NCBI RefSeq assembly: GCF_009914755.1
Contig: NC_060947.1
DNA from: the human T2T-CHM13v2.0 reference genome, Homo sapiens
DNA length: 64,000 nucleotides
Reading direction: 5' to 3' (one strand)
Shown here: piece by piece, positions 51,232 to 61,319 of the stretch
Numbering within the stretch: the first letter of the stretch is position 1
How the letters are laid out: each line of letters begins with the position of its first letter
Made by a program: the position numbers and the translations under genes
Notes under the pieces: model-generated
The model's input: the letters and a program-made list of their open reading frames with translations, nothing else
Told to the model about the DNA's origin: nothing
Database searches by the model: none

Positions 51232-51781
51232 TGTCGAGGCATTGGAACAAGAGCAACTCCATCTTGAATAGGAGCTGGGTAAAATGAGGCTGAAACCTAC
51301 TCGGCTGCATTCCCAGATGGTTAAGGAATTCTAAGTCACAGGATGAGATTAAAGGTCAGCACAAAATATAGGTTGTAAAGACCTTGCTGATAAAACAGTT
51401 GCAGTAAAGAAGCCCACCCAAACCCACCAAAACCAAGATGGTGACGAGAGTGACCTATGGTCGTCCTCATTGCTACACTCTGACCAGCTCCATGACAGCT
51501 TACAAATGCCATGGCAAGGTCAGGAAGTTACCCTATATGGTCTAAAAAGCAGGAGGCATGAATAATCCACCTTTCGTTTAGCATATCATCAAGAAATAAC
51601 CATAAAAATGGGCAACCAGAAGCCCTCGGCGCTGCTGTCTATGGAGTAGCCATTCTTTATTCCTTTACTTTCATAATATACTTGCTTTTGCTTTGCACTG
51701 TGGACTCACCCTGAACTCTTTCTTGTGTGAGATCCAACAACCCTCTCTTGGAGTCTGGATCGGGACCCCTTTCCTGTAACA
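51232..51781 (+). mobile_element. MER41A solo LTR (ERV1)
   Basis: TG..CA termini; gagcaactccatcttgaataggagctgggtaaaatgaggctga; ggacccctttcctgtaaca; 550 bp; GAGG on both sides. Confidence 0.93.
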
Positions 51782-51785
51782 GAGG

Positions 51786-52257
51786 TGTGAAAGGAAAAGA
51801 AATCTTAGGGCTCCCAAAAACACTAAGCTAAAGGGAAAAGTCAAGCTGGAAACTTCTTGGGCCAATCTGCCTCCCATTCTATTCAAAGTCACCCCTCTGC
51901 TCACTGAGATAAATGCATATCTGATTGCCTCCTCTGGCGGAGCTTATCAGAAACTCAGAAGAATGCAACCATTTGTCTCTTACCTACCTATAACCTGGAA
52001 GCCCCCTCTCCACTTCCAGTCTGTCCACCTTTGCTTCGAGTTGTCCCACCTTTCCAGACAGAACCAATGTTCATCTTACATATGTTGATTGATGTTTCAT
52101 GTTTCCTTAAAATGTATAAAACCCAACTGTGCTCTGACCACCTTCGACACATGTCGTCAGATCCTCCTGAGGTTGTATCACTGGTACGTATCCTCAACAT
52201 TGGCAAAATAAACTTTATAAATTAACTGAGACCTGTGTCAGATTTTCGGGGTTCACA
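51786..52257 (+). mobile_element. MER4A1 solo LTR (ERV1)
   Basis: tgtgaaaggaaaa..aaatctt...cactaagctaaagggaaaagtcaagctgg...gggttcaca; 472 bp; GAGG on both sides. Confidence 0.92.
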
Positions 52258-52575
52258 GAGGCAATAGATATTTAATCAGGTTTTGATACACTATGGTAAG
52301 TGCAGTGATAAAAAATGCAAAGGTGAGGAATGGTTGAACTGCTGTATTTTGACAAAGAATGTGTTTGTGTGATTTATAAAAGCTAAATGAAAGTTGCTGA
52401 GAATGTTTAGGTAATCTCTTGCCTTCTCCTTTCCCTTCTGTTCTGACCATGAAGCAACCCTGGAGTTTCTGTGAATCTGCTGTTATTCTGGGGGCTGCCC
52501 GATTCGCGAATCATTCATTGCTCAGTTAAACTCTGTTAAATTTAATTCAGCTGAAGGTTTTCTTCTTTTATCAGA

Positions 52576-52593
52576 TGGTGTCACAAGTGGGAT
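52576..52593 (+). other. Primer binding site, tRNA-Leu(CAA)-like
   Basis: tggtgtcacaagtgggat vs TGGTGTCAGAAGTGGGAT (complement of the tRNA-Leu 3' end as I recall it), 2 nt after the LTR CA. Confidence 0.8.
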
Positions 52594-54140
52594 TCAAAGT
52601 AGAGCTCTAGCCACCCCCAGGAGTGCTGAGTGAACATGGAAGGACCCACTTGTGTCCATTGATCTCTCAGAGATGCTGGGGATTGTGGGTATACTCCCTT
52701 TTGGATTTCGGAGCTCCATGGATTTGTGTTTTGAGCTCTCTGAGTTTCTTTGAGCAAATTTCTGATTCAAACTGGGTTTGGAGTCATGACAGAAACTAGA
52801 CTGGGTTCAGCAATGGATTTGATCTGGGAATTAACTGGCTCGAATCCAGTTAGAGGCCTCTTACATCTGACTGGGTCAGAAAGGAGCTGGTAGTAAGCAG
52901 TAATATTGCAGGGGGTATAAAATTTGGCTTTTGAAAATTCACAGGGATTTTTGTGTTATACCACTTTGTTTCATGTTTCTTGTGTACTTAGGTAGGAAAA
53001 ATTATTGGCTAAGTTAATCAAGAGAACCTGAGCATAAAGCCAATATTTTAGGTAAAATGAGATCCTTAATTTCTAGAAAACTGAGTTCCTTCTGGTTTAT
53101 ACTTTAGGCCCGGGAAGAAGCAAAATCTTACAGAAATGGCAAAATCTTACTAAAGATAACTTATAGTGGAACATTCCGAATGAACAACAACGCATTGAAG
53201 TACATTTAAAAATGAAGGCTCTCAGTAAAGTTCCTTTTGGCTAAGAATGGGTTTAGTACTATAGCATGTCAACTGCTATTCTCTTTGGAAGAATCTGCCT
53301 TGCATTCTTTGCTGATGGCTGTGGGTGACAGGATTAGGCACATACAAGATCGTGAGACATGGGGAGCTTTTTCCTCTCTAAAAGGGGAAACTTGAGAGCT
53401 GATGGGACTGCTGGAAAAGATCCCTTTTATACCGAGAAGCAGTCGCCTGAACTTTTTAGTGTTGCTGCAATGGGTGGGTCTTTCTCTGGCCTCCCTGAGC
53501 AGCTCACCTTCCCCACCCTGCCATGGGCAATGCTTTTCTCTCTCTACTTTTCCTGTCTTATATTTTCTATTACTCAGGGCGACCATCTTGCCCAGAGACC
53601 ACATGTTGAAACTCCTGGTTGGAGGTTGGATTAACGATCATGGGGCCTAACCAGGGGCAAGTTTGAGCCTTGCCAGTTTGATATTGGGTGCTAATCAGAA
53701 TGTCTGTGTTTTGTCACATGTATTTTACTCTGGCCAGAGCAAAAAAAGATACTTTTCCTTTATGCTACAGCTTGGTCACAGTGCAATGGTGCAGAGAACT
53801 GAGTCACTAGGGCCACTCAGGGAAAGGAACCCAGAAACCTGGCATGCTGGCAAAAGGGGAAGAATTTCTTACCAGTCAGATTTCTTGCTTCTTTCTCTCT
53901 GTGCAAATGGTTGAATGGATGGTAAAAAATTACTGTTTATCTCCATCTTGTTTCACGTCCTTGGGAGCTTGACCTTGTAACCATATGACAATACTTTCTC
54001 TTGGTCTCTGCCTTCCAGAGAACAGGAATTTTAGGGTTTATGTCATAGTTAGCTCTAAAAATTATCTTGAGTAGTTAATAGCCTTTGCAAGCTCAACATT
54101 AATGACTGTAGATTCCTTCTGGGGAGGGCAATGGAGATTA

Positions 54141-54216
54141 CCCTCTGCTGTAGCTCAGTAGCTAAGGTTTCTCCTTTTCACACTGGCAGTCTGGGTTCAA
54201 TTCCCTGCTTAGGCAG
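54141..54216 (+). pseudogene. tRNA-Glu(TTC)-like relic inside the ERV internal region
   Basis: A box tagctcagtagc, loop ttTTCac, B box ggttcaattcc at tRNA spacing; stems degraded. Confidence 0.6.
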
Positions 54217-56724
54217 TAAGTCCCTTTTGGTTTAATATCTGCATGACCTTGTTTAGCCTCTTCTCCTCCATGGACTATCTTAAATTTTCTTTTCTCTGAG
54301 CACCTAGGAGGTTACCTTTGGTAAAGTTCAAAGGCCAGAAATATCGGCCCCTTGGCCTGGCTAAGGTTGGGTAATAAAAAATACTAAAAAGACTTTATTA
54401 CAGTGCTATGGTTAAAAGTCAGCTTAATTAAAAGCAGATATTCAAGCTCTAACAGCCTGTACACCTTGGGAAAAACAGGAGGCACCAGAAACTCCTTTCC
54501 TGGCCCTATTCTTCCAAGGGCTCCACCCTAAAGCCAATAACCAATTAAGAAACTTAAAAACTGGCAAACGAAAAATCTTACAACTACTGTAGTAATCTTC
54601 CGTCTGTCTGTGTAATTATATATGTGTTGTGTGTAATGTTTATATAAAAGAGCTCTAATTAATTGGCTTAAACAAAAACAAATGCTTAAATCAAGTATTT
54701 TAAAAGCAAAATAAAAACAGCTTTAAAGATTATTGATAAAATAAAGACATTTTGTCTAAATTATGCAGATCAGATATTAGGTTTGAAAATGCTTTAAAGT
54801 CATAACTGCTTTGACTTTTGAAAATTGTTCAATTTATTTTGGAGACATTACATTCTAAATAGGCCTGGGGATATATGGAATTAACCATGCTCACTAGCTA
54901 TGCAAAGAAGGTTATAAAGAAAAGAGATTTTATATAAGAAAGGATGTTGTATGGTAAATTCCTGTCCTAAAGTAAAATAACTGGGTGTTTAAAAAGAGGG
55001 GTGTTTAGGGCAAATCAGAAAGTCTAAACATGTTGTACATGGTCTGTGTAAGTCGTGAAAGAATTTATGAAAAGATATTTTTGCCAGAAATGTTGTACAA
55101 TTTAAAATTAGGCCTCCTAAATGCTTCCTAAAGTGCCACTATGACTCTTAACTGTACAGTTTGTCTGTTTTACAACTAGGTAAGGCCCGGTACACGCGGA
55201 GTTAGATGCTGGAAAGAGTCAGATCTTATCTGCATTTCTGTCTAGGTCCTAGGTTCCACACCTAGTACACAATTAAAATCCCTTACTTACCAAGGTTTTC
55301 ACCAAAAGTAAAAGTTGCTAAGAATTAACACTGTAATATGTAGTTGAGACTACTGAAAAAATAAGTTTACATACAAGGTATGTAAGGAGAATAAAGTGTG
55401 TTTTCATAAGAGATTATAAAAAGGTATAGAATGTAAATTTCTGCCTAGGTTAGAGGGTTAAAGGATTGTTTTAAATTAAATAAAGCTAAAGATTTGAACA
55501 AGTTGTGAAAGGTTTATAAAAAATTAATTGTAAAATATTCTATGTGTGGACATATTGGCTAAAGTGAAAATGGCATTATTCAGCTTTTTCCATAAATTGG
55601 ACATTGGAATAAAAGCTCAACAGAGTTTTATTAAAACATTGTTCTGCTCTGAGAAAAAAAAAATTTAAAGGGTTATAAAAGGTTTATAAAAATCTTAACT
55701 TGTGGTCAAACTAATTAAAACTGAATAGGTTTATAAAATGTTATTTAAAAGCTAGCTTTAACATCAAAAATACACTAATGGAAACATAAAATTTGGTTTT
55801 CTCTTTTAAAAAGTATTTTGTGTAATATCAAAAGACAAAGGTTTTTGTTTATCTTTTAAGTAACTACAAAGGACACAATGGGGAAGGGAAGGAAAGGAGA
55901 CAGAGTCAGTTGTCCTCATGCTATCTTCATTGGGTCTTGTTTGGAAAGCTGAGTCTCCTCTCTATCAGAATAAGGTTTTTTCCTTTAAAAAATTTATGAG
56001 TTATCATTTTGCTAAATAAATGATTTATGGTACCCTAAGATTTTATGTTGTAATATCCACTGTTTTAAACCTTTGGTATTTAACAAACCTTTCAAAATCA
56101 AGCTCTAGATTATCATGCTAAATCAGCCAATACTAAAATTGTTTAAGTACACAATTTGAATGAACTCCATGGTCTAAGTCAAATTACCTCTGCTAACCCA
56201 TTAGTTATCAGTCCTATGCACCTAAATTGGAGAAACAAGTGGAATGCAGAAGGACATAAGTCCAATGTTAAGCATGGACTCATGAATAACCAGGATGGCC
56301 ACCCTGTCTTTCCTGAGTCCTTAAAGCTTTTGTTATTAAAGGTTCTGCATTACATGAGTCGTCAAGAAAAAAAAAATCCAAATTAAATATATTGATGTGG
56401 TGACTTATAAATTGCAGAAATAATTTAAAACCAGTGTTTGGTTCCATATTTCTGGGAAGACAATCAAAGCTTCAGGTACATTTGGCTACCTGATAGGCCA
56501 TTTAAACATTTATAAAAGGATTTCATTCAATTGTCATTTTTAATTCATTTTTCTGGTTGTATAAAAGCTTTCCCATGCAAGAGGGCTGATGTTATAACAG
56601 TAGATTATTATGCTACAGTGTATTTTCACCAGGTAAATAAAGCTTTTTAATGGTTCACTGAGGACAATCTCTTCACAATCTAGAGCCCGAAGATTGGATC
56701 TTCTGAGAGTATCAGAGAAAGACC

Positions 56725-56781: not shown

Positions 56782-57268
56782 CTCATAACTGGGATGGCTC
56801 CCTCCACACTCCTGGAACTGTACACCCACTGGAACCCTTAAGGTAAAACTAACCAGGAAAGTTTATCCCCAGAAGAAGATAACATCCTTGATGTGAACAG
56901 CTTTCCCCAAGATCACCAATCAAGACTTCTACTATCACTAGACTCTTATATTTGAACATTTTTTCCTTGTTTACGCCTGTATGAACAATAGAAATGAAAA
57001 GGGGATCTATTACTTGCACTTACAGGATATACTTTTATTTTTGAGGGATTTTGCAGCCAGCCTTCTACATGAATAACCGTATACTTTAATAGATAAAAGA
57101 TGAAGGTCCAATGTAGGTGAGAAACTTTGGTGGTACATGTGTTGCCTCATAATCAGTCAAAACTCCTCTTAACCCACATCATGGATTAAAGAGAACATTG
57201 CCAGGAGGCCTTCACTCTTCTAAAAGGACATCATTTGTTATGTCCTTTGTCCATGATTTAGAAAAAAA

Positions 57269-57450
57269 GAGGCAATAATTAGAAATGTCACCCACACAAT
57301 AGGCTTTACAGAAAATTCTACTTTAAAGGCTATCATTGCACAACAGACTTTAAATTCTCTTGTGAAAATTATGCTAAATAATAGAATTGGCTAAACAGAA
57401 AAGTACATGTGCAGCTGCTGACACTCGTGGCCTATGGAAAAATACATCAA
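57269..57450 (+). pseudogene. env TM relic
   Basis: EAIIRNVTHTIGFTENSTLKAIIAQQTLNSLVKIMLNNRIG* (heptad repeat plus start of the immunosuppressive domain), then TCAAADTRGLWKNTS (decayed CX6CC region). Confidence 0.7.
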
Positions 57451-58233
57451 ATGTAGATTATAAAAATTCAGTTGTAGAGGATTAATGAAAAGGCCACTTA
57501 GTCAAGCAAGTAGACTCTTCATCTAGCTCATTCTTTACTTATTTAATTTTAGGTGGTTTGGTTTATGGGGAACCTGGGTAAGGAGCATACTCCAAACTCT
57601 TGGTATTATTCTCTGAATAGTCATAATAATAGTCTCCCTGGTGTGCTGTATTATCTCAAAGGAGTTAAATGTTTTCCTGCAGCCATCTCTAAAACGTCAA
57701 ATGGTCTCTCTTCAACTGGAATGACAAAAGCTGAAAGAAATGTGTGACCATGATAACAACATAACCTATGAATGATGTGCTGAGACCAGAAACCCAAAAT
57801 GATGGTAACTGAGAGTGGCACTAAGGCCCTAAGTTTTGGTCACACTCTCACCTATGTGAGAACCTGGACAAAAAGAGGAAATTTTTTTAAACAAAATTAT
57901 AGGAGGCCATTATTTTGGACTGAACTTATGTGCTAGGCCCTAACAAACCAAACCAAACCAAACTAAAATGGAGTCACTTGTGCTAAATGTGACATAATCA
58001 AGCTAAGGCTTTAAGAAAACACATAGATCCTAAAATGGACCAGGTTTTTTCTCCTGTAAACATCATGTTCCAGTATAAGGAGGTATCCTCTACTCAGTCC
58101 TTATTCCCTCGTTGCAAAACGCACTGTTCTACTTTTCCAGTGGGTTTCAAAACCATATAAGTACATATACCATAGTGATAGTAACACCAGTGACTGAGAT
58201 TTTGGTCAATCTCTCAAAATTGAGAAAATGACC

Positions 58234-58245
58234 AAAAGGGGGGAA
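58234..58245 (+). other. Polypurine tract
   Basis: aaaaggggggaa immediately before the 3' LTR TG. Confidence 0.9.
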
Positions 58246-58843
58246 TTGTTAAACCAAACTAAATATGGCCTGAGAAGGACTCCATACTTCTATATTTGAG
58301 TCCTTGTGGATGAATTGTAACCTAGCTTAATAGTCAGACAAAATTGAAAACCAAACTTAATAGTATGCCCCTGTAACAATGGCTGAGTGTTGGCCAATCC
58401 CAGGAGTCTTACTTCAACTACTCATAGACTGCTGAATGTTCAAACTGCGTTCAAATAAGGCAAATGTTGAGCTGTAACCAATCTCACTGTTTCTGTACCT
58501 CACTTCCAATTCCTGTATGTCACTTTACCTTTTTTGCCTATAAATTTGTTCTGACCACGAGGCACCCCTGGAGTCTCTGTGAGTCTGCTGTGATTCTCGG
58601 GGCTGCCCAATTTGCGAATCATTCATTGCTCAGTTAAACTCTTTTAAATTTAATTCGGCTGAAGTTTTTATTTTATCAACGTAAATGTTTATAAATCAAA
58701 CATTAGAAGGCTTTTGTTGTACTTTGAGCCATGCCAGTTATTACGTGTGAGACCTTGGTTAAGTTACTTCACCCTCTCTAGGTTTCAGCTTTATTATTTG
58801 TAGAAAAAGCAACTGTAAAAAATCTTATAATGTAACAACCAAG

Positions 58844-59171
58844 TGAGACAGCCAGGTGGGAGGGGTCCCTGGAGAAACACCAACCAGCCTGCCCACTGAG
58901 GTAGAGCCTCGGGAAGTTCACGATGTTTGCAGCAGGGAGGAGCCTGGCCCTTCCTCTTCTTGTGTGGAATCTGGGATTCGAACTGCTGGGCTGGAAGCAC
59001 TCTAGCAGGGGCTTTGGCTTTGCAGAGGATCCGTGTTTCCCCTTTTTTCCTTTTCACCCAATAAAACCCTGCTTCACTCACCCTTTAAACCGTCTGCGAG
59101 TCTAAATTTTTGTGGCCCTGGGACAGACAAGAACCCCGTTTTTAGCTGTACTAAGGAAAAGTCCTGTGACA
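58844..59171 (+). mobile_element. MER61A-like solo LTR
   Basis: tgagacagccaggtgggaggggtccctgg...ctaaggaaaagtcctgtgaca; perfect TSD caag/caag; aataaa inside. Confidence 0.88.
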
Positions 59172-61019: not shown

Positions 61020-61319
61020 GGCTGGGCACGGTGGCTCACGCCTGTAATCCCAGCACTTTGGAAGGCTGAGGCGGGCGGGTCACGAGGTCAGGAGAGGGAG
61101 ACCATCCTGGCTAACGCGGTGAAACCCCCTCTCTACTAAAAATACAAAAAATTAGCCGGGTGCGGTGGCAGGCGCCTGTAGTCCTAGCTACTCTGGAGGC
61201 TGAGGCAGGAGAATGGCTGAACCCGGGAGGCGGAGTTTGCAGTGAGCCGAGATGGCGCCACTGCACTCCAGCTTGGGAGACAGCGAGACTCTGTCTCAAA
61301 AAAAAAAAAAGAAAAGGAA
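61020..61319 (+). mobile_element. AluY-like, full length, perfect TSD
   Basis: gaccatcctggctaac.cggtg; many CpGs retained; TSD agaaaatatgtcatt 61005-61019 / 61320-61334. Confidence 0.97.

What the first reader, a model, noticed from the sequence alone, without database searches (positions are those of the whole stretch)
54141..54216. tRNA-Glu-like Pol III cassette embedded inside the MER57 provirus
Seen: A-box-like tagctcagtagc (54151-54162), anticodon-like loop ttTTCac (54175-54181) and a consensus B box ggttcaattcc (54194-54204) at tRNA spacing. The segment is colinear with tRNA-Glu(TTC) as I recall it (AGTGGCTAGGATT..CTTTCAC..GGGTTCGATTCCC). It lies in sense orientation about 1.5 kb downstream of a PBS for a different tRNA (Leu). 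Inference: an ancestral ERV captured a whole tRNA by template switching. It may have spread TFIIIC/B-box sites (Pol III promoter or insulator) or used the fold for packaging. It has no poly(A) tail or TSD, so it does not look like an independent retro-pseudogene.
Basis: partly seen in the sequence, partly recalled or inferred. Interest (0 to 1): 0.7.

Follow-up and report, generated by a model that had tools for sequence, protein, structure and literature searches.

The report
Fossil tRNA carried by ancient retroviruses
This is a decayed copy of a glutamate transfer RNA inside a dead human endogenous retrovirus; it was likely copied once from a mature tRNA into an ancestral virus and handed down to several virus families, and this copy is probably inert today.

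Summary
Window 54144-54215 is a decayed, full-length, sense-strand tRNA-Glu inside a defective MER57-type provirus, 1.57 kb after its PBS. ARAGORN and Rfam miss it, but a model built from host tRNA-Glu genes ranks it first in 64 kb (24.2 bits, E about 5e-5; a Lys model gives 13.8). It is part of the element, not a local insertion: relatives carry it at the same place. Sister ERV1 lineages with homologous flanks carry less-decayed versions, mostly ending in CCA or one change from it (19 of 22; 0 of 30 host Glu genes encode CCA). So the source was likely a mature tRNA, captured once. In the MER57-like lineage the acceptor and anticodon stems and the CCA are lost while the loops and A/B boxes are kept (21/42 stem vs 1/22 loop positions changed). 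That hints at Pol III/TFIIIC use in the replicating virus, but nothing shows activity: 24 of 31 copies have an internal T4 run and the cassette is no better conserved than its neighbours. Ten literature searches found no description. Verdict: real, a new variant of small-RNA capture by LTR elements, function unproven.

The parts
54144..54215 (+). decayed full-length tRNA-Glu-derived cassette (positions 1-72 of the host gene), no CCA in this lineage
   Evidence: gap-free projection on host tRNA-Glu(TTC); Glu model 24.2 bits at 54147-54215
54151..54161 (+). Pol III A-box match (D arm)
   Evidence: sequence; only A+B pair at tRNA spacing in the window
54175..54181 (+). anticodon-type loop, TTC at 54177-54179; contains a T4 run (54175-54178); flanking stem does not pair stably
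54194..54204 (+). Pol III B-box match (T arm)
54225..54228 (+). T4 run just downstream (possible Pol III terminator; present in only 10 of 31 family-A copies, background 16% per 20 nt)
52439..52573 (+). 3' part of a truncated 5' LTR (90% identical to the end of the 3' LTR)
52576..52593 (+). primer binding site, Leu type
   Evidence: MER57 listed with PBS L in a supplement of PMC4724089
52576..58246 (+). non-coding, AT-rich internal region of a MER57-type defective provirus; about 215 nt shorter at 53943 than most relatives
   Evidence: no Pfam match in three frames; relatives
57257..57700 (+). broken env (TM) remnant resembling the published MER57b env putein
   Evidence: by-eye comparison, 83 translations with the supplement passage
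58247..58678 (+). 3' LTR (432 nt) after a polypurine tract at 58234-58245

Best explanation
The segment is a decayed, full-length tRNA-Glu in sense orientation inside a defective MER57-type provirus, likely captured once from a mature tRNA when reverse transcriptase switched onto a co-packaged tRNA in an ancestral MER4-group virus, and probably inert in this copy. Shown: Glu origin, family-wide presence, homologous flanks in sister lineages, CCA-like ends in a sister lineage, loss of the cloverleaf in this lineage. Inferred: single capture, the template-switch route, spread by viral replication and recombination, and present-day inactivity.
For: Glu model 24.2 bits vs Lys model 13.8 bits on the window copy; 20 of 30 family-A loci hit by the Glu model at E<=0.05 (28 of 30 at E<=10) vs 3 of 30 by the Lys model; anticodon triplet TTC in 28 of 31 copies. 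A sister family B is plainly Glu (top isotype Glu in 23 of 23; 16 of 20 at E<=0.01) and shares colinear 67-68% blocks on both sides of the cassette with the window element and two non-host letters at positions 17 and 22. The triplet after the discriminator is CCA in 9 of 22 family-B copies and within one change in 19 of 22; 0 of 30 host Glu loci encode CCA there, and none of their flanks resembles the ERV flanks. No poly(A) in 54 copies. A tree of 75 observed sequences puts family A on one long branch (100/100) with B and C nearer the host genes (72 columns, poorly resolved). For inertness: no stable fold, tiles over the cassette are 78-83% identical to relatives vs 78-89% for neighbours, no gene annotated (hub table).
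Against: Family A itself has no CCA (0 of 31), so mature-tRNA origin rests on the bridge to family B. Lineage-wide changes in family A avoid the loops (21 of 42 stem vs 1 of 22 loop positions, p 0.0002; 6 of 16 vs 1 of 20, p 0.03 without CpG sites and acceptor stem), and one D-stem pair has changed on both sides in 16 of 30 copies: not what a pure passenger predicts. An old L1-mediated or SINE insertion would look much the same once its target-site duplication had decayed. 11 of 31 family-A copies score best with Lys by pairwise alignment.
Confidence: 0.6

Rival explanations
1. The replicating virus kept the captured tRNA as an internal Pol III/TFIIIC module (type 2 promoter or boundary), and box-intact copies may still bind TFIIIC.
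For: All 13 box-defining positions stay within the box consensus in 68-100% of copies of both families, while stems diverged; both boxes are exact and at tRNA spacing in 8 of 31 family-A copies including this one; the cassette persists in at least three internal-region lineages. The same pattern (boxes kept, cloverleaf lost) is reported for Helenus TRIMs (PMC10886601).
Against: T4 or longer runs lie inside 24 of 31 family-A cassettes vs 2 of 11 host Glu genes; family B shows no stem/loop bias (6/42 vs 2/22, p 0.70) and only 1 of 22 copies has both boxes; the anticodon loop, which is no promoter part, is kept as well; the finding was picked for its boxes (ascertainment); no binding data.
Confidence: 0.27
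2. Same tRNA-Glu origin, but entry was at the DNA level: L1 machinery inserted a mature tRNA (tailless retropseudogene) or a tRNA-Glu-derived SINE head into an ancestral provirus, which then spread it.
For: CCA end fits any RNA-templated route; independent CCA-ended Glu retrocopies exist in this genome (L153 has an A-rich tail, L148 has flanking direct repeats); tRNA-Glu-derived SINE families CHR-1/CHR-2 exist in cetartiodactyls (PMC9223172).
Against: No A-tail in 0 of 54 A/B copies; no clear target-site duplication in alignments; sense orientation is required by template switching but only 50% likely here; no SINE body follows the CCA.
Confidence: 0.2
3. The cassette came from a primer read-through product (whole primer tRNA-Glu joined to minus strong-stop DNA of a Glu-primed ERV) that recombined into another ERV.
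For: Such products exist here: an ERV sublineage whose PBS is extended to the whole tRNA-Glu complement (L088, L144, L145; 9 of 40 rows cover both flanks; Gag MA follows in L088) and a tRNA+LTR-end chimera between direct repeats (L148).
Against: Those copies are antisense to their provirus, lie at the LTR edge, group with host genes in the tree and have unrelated flanks; the 3' flank of families A/B was not seen to match an LTR end.
Confidence: 0.1
4. The segment derives from tRNA-Lys or is a chance likeness in AT-rich ERV DNA.
For: Pairwise score of the window copy is higher for Lys(TTT); no ARAGORN or Rfam call.
Against: 0 of 790 null tiles; Glu model beats Lys model by 10 bits here and 20 vs 3 of 30 loci; sister lineages are unambiguous Glu.
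Confidence: 0.03

Closest known systems
Helenus / Ajax / Cassandra TRIMs (TRIMp3; Kojima 2024, PMC10886601: parts 1 and 3 of 6 and passages read)
   Same: Non-autonomous LTR element carrying a small-RNA-derived segment with A and B boxes kept and the tRNA fold lost; tRNA-like part unrelated to the primer tRNA.
   Different: There the segment lies in both LTRs of elements under about 1.3 kb and can drive the whole transcript; here it is a single internal segment 1.6-1.8 kb from the PBS in a 6-kb mammalian ERV1; the paper has 0 occurrences of ERV or mammal.
MER57 (MER57-int, MER4I group; Vargiu 2016 PMC4724089 passages and supplement passages; Kojima 2018 PMC5753468 passages)
   Same: Leu PBS, LTR/PBS junction and env remnant resemble the published MER57 entries; no pol or gag.
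   Different: The passages seen mention tRNA only as primer; 0 hits for tRNA-Glu, tRNA-like or tRNA gene in the six supplement files held.
tRNA-Glu-derived SINEs CHR-1/CHR-2 (PMC9223172 passages)
   Same: Full tRNA-Glu-derived head with Pol III boxes.
   Different: They are independent LINE-mobilised elements of cetartiodactyls; this one moves only as part of an ERV. A sequence likeness between CHR heads and family B is recalled only and was not tested.
Primer tRNA/strong-stop chimeras (Ohshima et al. 1993 model; title seen in a reference list only, paper not held)
   Same: Whole tRNA with CCA joined to retroviral sequence by reverse transcriptase.
   Different: Such products abut an LTR end and are antisense to the provirus (as in L088, L144, L148); the finding is internal and sense.
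[quoted passage not shown] 2006 not held)
   Same: A whole host tRNA sequence inside a retroviral genome.
   Different: Recalled as an intact gene between pol and env of an exogenous fish virus; not verified here.

Membership tests
functional tRNA gene (RF00005) | covariance score over the family cut-off / ARAGORN call | tested here: not met
   best relative 23.2 bits vs cut-off 29 (L018); 0 calls at the cassette in 30 loci
functional tRNA gene (RF00005) | four paired stems | tested here: not met
   acceptor and anticodon stems broken; isolated anticodon arm median 0.0 vs -6.2 kcal/mol in host; alignment
tRNA-Glu-derived sequence | significant, colinear match to tRNA-Glu over its length, better than to other isotypes | tested here: met
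   host set had 71 distinct genes in 24 anticodon classes, lacking His, Pro, Tyr, Asn, Sec and some isoacceptors
RNA-templated (mature tRNA) copy | 3' CCA not encoded in host genes | tested here: inconclusive
   met in family B (9 of 22 exact, 19 of 22 within one change; host 0 of 30); not met in family A itself (0 of 31)
independent L1-mediated tRNA retropseudogene | unique flanks, A-tail or target-site duplication | tested here: not met
   flanks shared by relatives; no A-tail
Pol III type 2 promoter | A and B boxes at tRNA spacing | tested here: met
   (spacing 44)
Pol III type 2 promoter | TFIIIC/Pol III binding or transcript | not testable with these tools
   no ChIP or RNA data; PMC5529029 passages have 0 occurrences of GTF3C, POLR3 or BRF
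TRIMp3 (Helenus) | tRNA-like segment inside the LTRs of an element of about 1 kb or less | tested here: not met
   internal position, 6.2-kb element; Glu model has no hit in either LTR
MER57 ERV1 | Leu PBS and MER57-type LTR end and env remnant | tested here: met
   by-eye match to published passages
MER57 ERV1 | assignment by Dfam/RepeatMasker model | not testable with these tools
   no repeat library available; names of families B and C unknown

The most novel reading that the evidence does not exclude
MER4-group retroviruses captured a mature host tRNA-Glu and kept its Pol III promoter boxes under selection through the divergence of several families, seeding the primate genome with a hidden class of ERV-internal TFIIIC/B-box sites; the same cassette might be kin to, or the source of, mammalian tRNA-Glu SINE heads.
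Probability: 0.18. Interest if true: 0.75.

Novelty: new variant of a known kind. Interest (0 to 1): 0.42.

Why it matters
It documents capture of a whole mature host tRNA by a mammalian retrovirus lineage and gives a 72-nt marker with a known starting sequence (the host gene) for ordering the poorly resolved, recombinant MER4-group families. It warns that some decayed tRNA-Glu hits in the human genome are ERV parts, not tRNA pseudogenes. If the boxes were selected, it would be the first ERV-internal counterpart of the Pol III modules of Cassandra and Helenus and a source of TFIIIC sites; that part is unproven.

Tried and rejected
ARAGORN and Rfam on the window and on 20-30 relatives: no call at the cassette. 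Lys origin: suggested, rejected. Conserved cloverleaf or packaging fold: anticodon-stem pairing in family A (68% vs 15-34% slid) turned out to be mostly G-U pairs with no stable arm. A second tRNA-like call in relatives (ARAGORN Ile at L014:278-364; weak model hits in L014, L018, L020, L025) is a local repeat-rich leader with no tRNA match: rejected as artefact. Downstream T4 as terminator: 10 of 31 (A) and 13 of 23 (B) vs 16-21% background, weak. Pfam on element frames to place the cassette relative to gag/pol: nothing in the window, L091, L014, L021, L009. A generic A+B-box genome pattern gave one unrelated hit. L095 is a chance motif hit. Motif search in the supplements of PMC4724089 was uninformative because long sequence runs are cut there. 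Two papers wanted (Paul 2006, Ohshima 1993) are not held.

Full report
Observation. The stretch 54144-54215 projects without gaps on a host tRNA-Glu(TTC) gene taken from the same genome. General tools miss it: ARAGORN 0 genes, no RF00005 hit, folding z -0.55. Specific tests find it: 0 of 790 control tiles reach its score, and a covariance model from 8 host Glu genes ranks it first in the window at 24.2 bits, E 5.3e-5 (rough calibration). It is the only A+B box pair at tRNA spacing in 64 kb (box patterns recalled).

Which tRNA. One pairwise alignment preferred Lys(TTT), and 11 of 31 family copies did too (14 Glu-TTC, 1 Glu-CTC, 3 Gly, 2 Thr). With structure, a Lys model gives 13.8 bits on the window copy and hits 3 of 30 relatives at E<=0.05, against 20 of 30 for Glu. 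The triplet at the anticodon is TTC in 28 of 31 copies. The host set lacked His, Pro, Tyr, Asn and Sec.

Context. The cassette lies 1.57 kb after a Leu-type PBS (52576) in a 6.2-kb element with a truncated 5' LTR, a 432-nt 3' LTR, no Pfam-detectable coding remnant and a broken env piece. The LTR end, PBS type and env piece resemble the MER57 entries in the supplements of PMC4724089 (passages, by eye). A genome search with 161 nt gave 213 candidates, 40 scored, 40 matches; I fetched 30 (one is the window copy). All carry the segment at the same place, one (L024) lacking its 5' part, within kilobases of shared flank. With L094 these are family A (31 copies). So it is part of the element.

Sister lineages. 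A pattern search found a second element type; 20 of its 42 relatives were fetched as short stretches. This family B (23 sequences with L091-L093) is clearly Glu (16 of 20 at E<=0.01). It shares three colinear 67-68% blocks around the cassette with the window element and a similar 3' flank (26.0 vs 16.4 shuffled), and two non-host letters. After the discriminator base it reads CCA in 9 of 22 and within one change of CCA in 19 of 22 (L092, a near-duplicate, dropped), whereas 0 of 30 host Glu loci encode CCA and their flanks are unrelated. A further search gave 60 matches vs 0 for the control pattern (many are true tRNA genes); 20 were fetched and show more internal lineages and some independent copies. 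A tree of 75 observed sequences (L024, L092, L094-type duplicates aside: L024, L092, L141, L152, L159 left out) puts family A on one long branch, B and C nearer the host genes (few columns, bootstrap not settled).

How it arose (inferred). A CCA-ended, full-length, sense-strand tRNA without A-tail (0 of 54), in one homologous position across families, fits one template switch of reverse transcriptase onto a co-packaged mature tRNA-Glu in a common ancestor. L1-mediated or SINE insertion into an ancestral provirus, or reuse of a primer read-through product, are not excluded; the latter products do exist in this genome as a separate class.

What it does. In family A lineage-wide changes hit 21 of 42 stem and 1 of 22 loop positions (p 0.0002; p 0.03 on the strictest subset; significant for A/T but not G/C host bases). 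Acceptor and anticodon stems are lost, the CCA is lost, one D-stem pair is compensated in 16 of 30 copies, and the box positions stay in consensus; 8 of 31 copies keep both boxes. That suggests promoter-type use in the replicating virus. Against it: family B shows no such bias (p 0.70) and 1 of 22 copies has both boxes; 24 of 31 family-A cassettes hold an internal T4 run; the finding was chosen for its boxes; and since insertion the cassette has decayed like its neighbours. I put this copy as probably inert and the Pol III/TFIIIC reading at about one in four. A tRNA-like packaging fold is not supported.

Known or new. Ten searches (listings and abstract starts) returned no paper describing a tRNA inside MER57/MER4-group internal regions. 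Read further: PMC10886601 (parts 1 and 3 of 6 and passages), passages of PMC4724089 with supplement passages, PMC5753468, PMC11905727, PMC1431705, PMC5529029, PMC9223172, PMC2850357, PMC13297096, PMC5210030, PMC13517186, PMC5016936. Repbase/Dfam notes, subscription papers and bioRxiv supplements could not be searched, and repeat curators may well know the segment. The closest described kind is the small-RNA-carrying TRIMs (Cassandra, Helenus, Ajax), which it works like at most and is not a member of. The salmon virus tRNA-Met case is recalled only.

Verdict. Real feature; Glu identity secure; single capture of a mature tRNA likely; function unproven. New variant of a known kind, interest 0.42; most novel reading 0.18 probable, 0.75 if true.

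Noticed in passing
L088:1487-1562, L144, L145, L142 (chr2:96058023, chr2:159343705, chr8:7826882, chr3:106879131): A Glu-primed ERV sublineage in which the PBS is extended to the complement of the whole tRNA-Glu(CTC) right after the LTR end; 9 of 40 rows cover both flanks; Gag MA follows in L088. Looks like primer read-through fixed in proviruses, a second and separate capture; some copies may be segmental duplications.
   Followed up: partly
L148 (chr2:11584621-11584781): 5'-truncated tRNA-Glu with CCA joined to about 33 nt of reverse-complemented LTR end, between 11-nt direct repeats: an integrated primer/strong-stop chimera.
   Followed up: partly
L093, L143, L146, L149, L154, L157, L158, L160; L147, L155: Further internal-region lineages with a CCA-ended Glu cassette, a 5' flank like family B and different 3' flanks (grouped by eye; 20 of the 60 matches fetched).
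   Followed up: partly
L014:1-230, L020, L025, L030: Family-A cassettes also occur behind a different LTR end and a different, Arg/Trp-like PBS with a repeat-rich leader, i.e. in a second, recombinant background.
   Followed up: partly
window 52439-52573: The 5' LTR is truncated just after the TATA-like position; only its last 135 nt match the 3' LTR.
   Followed up: partly
window 51630-51780 and 51790-52260: Two further LTR-like pieces upstream of the element (ends in taaca and ttcaca); not classified.
   Followed up: no
window 58840-59170: Another LTR-like element follows the 3' LTR; Alu copies at 61020-61300.
   Followed up: no
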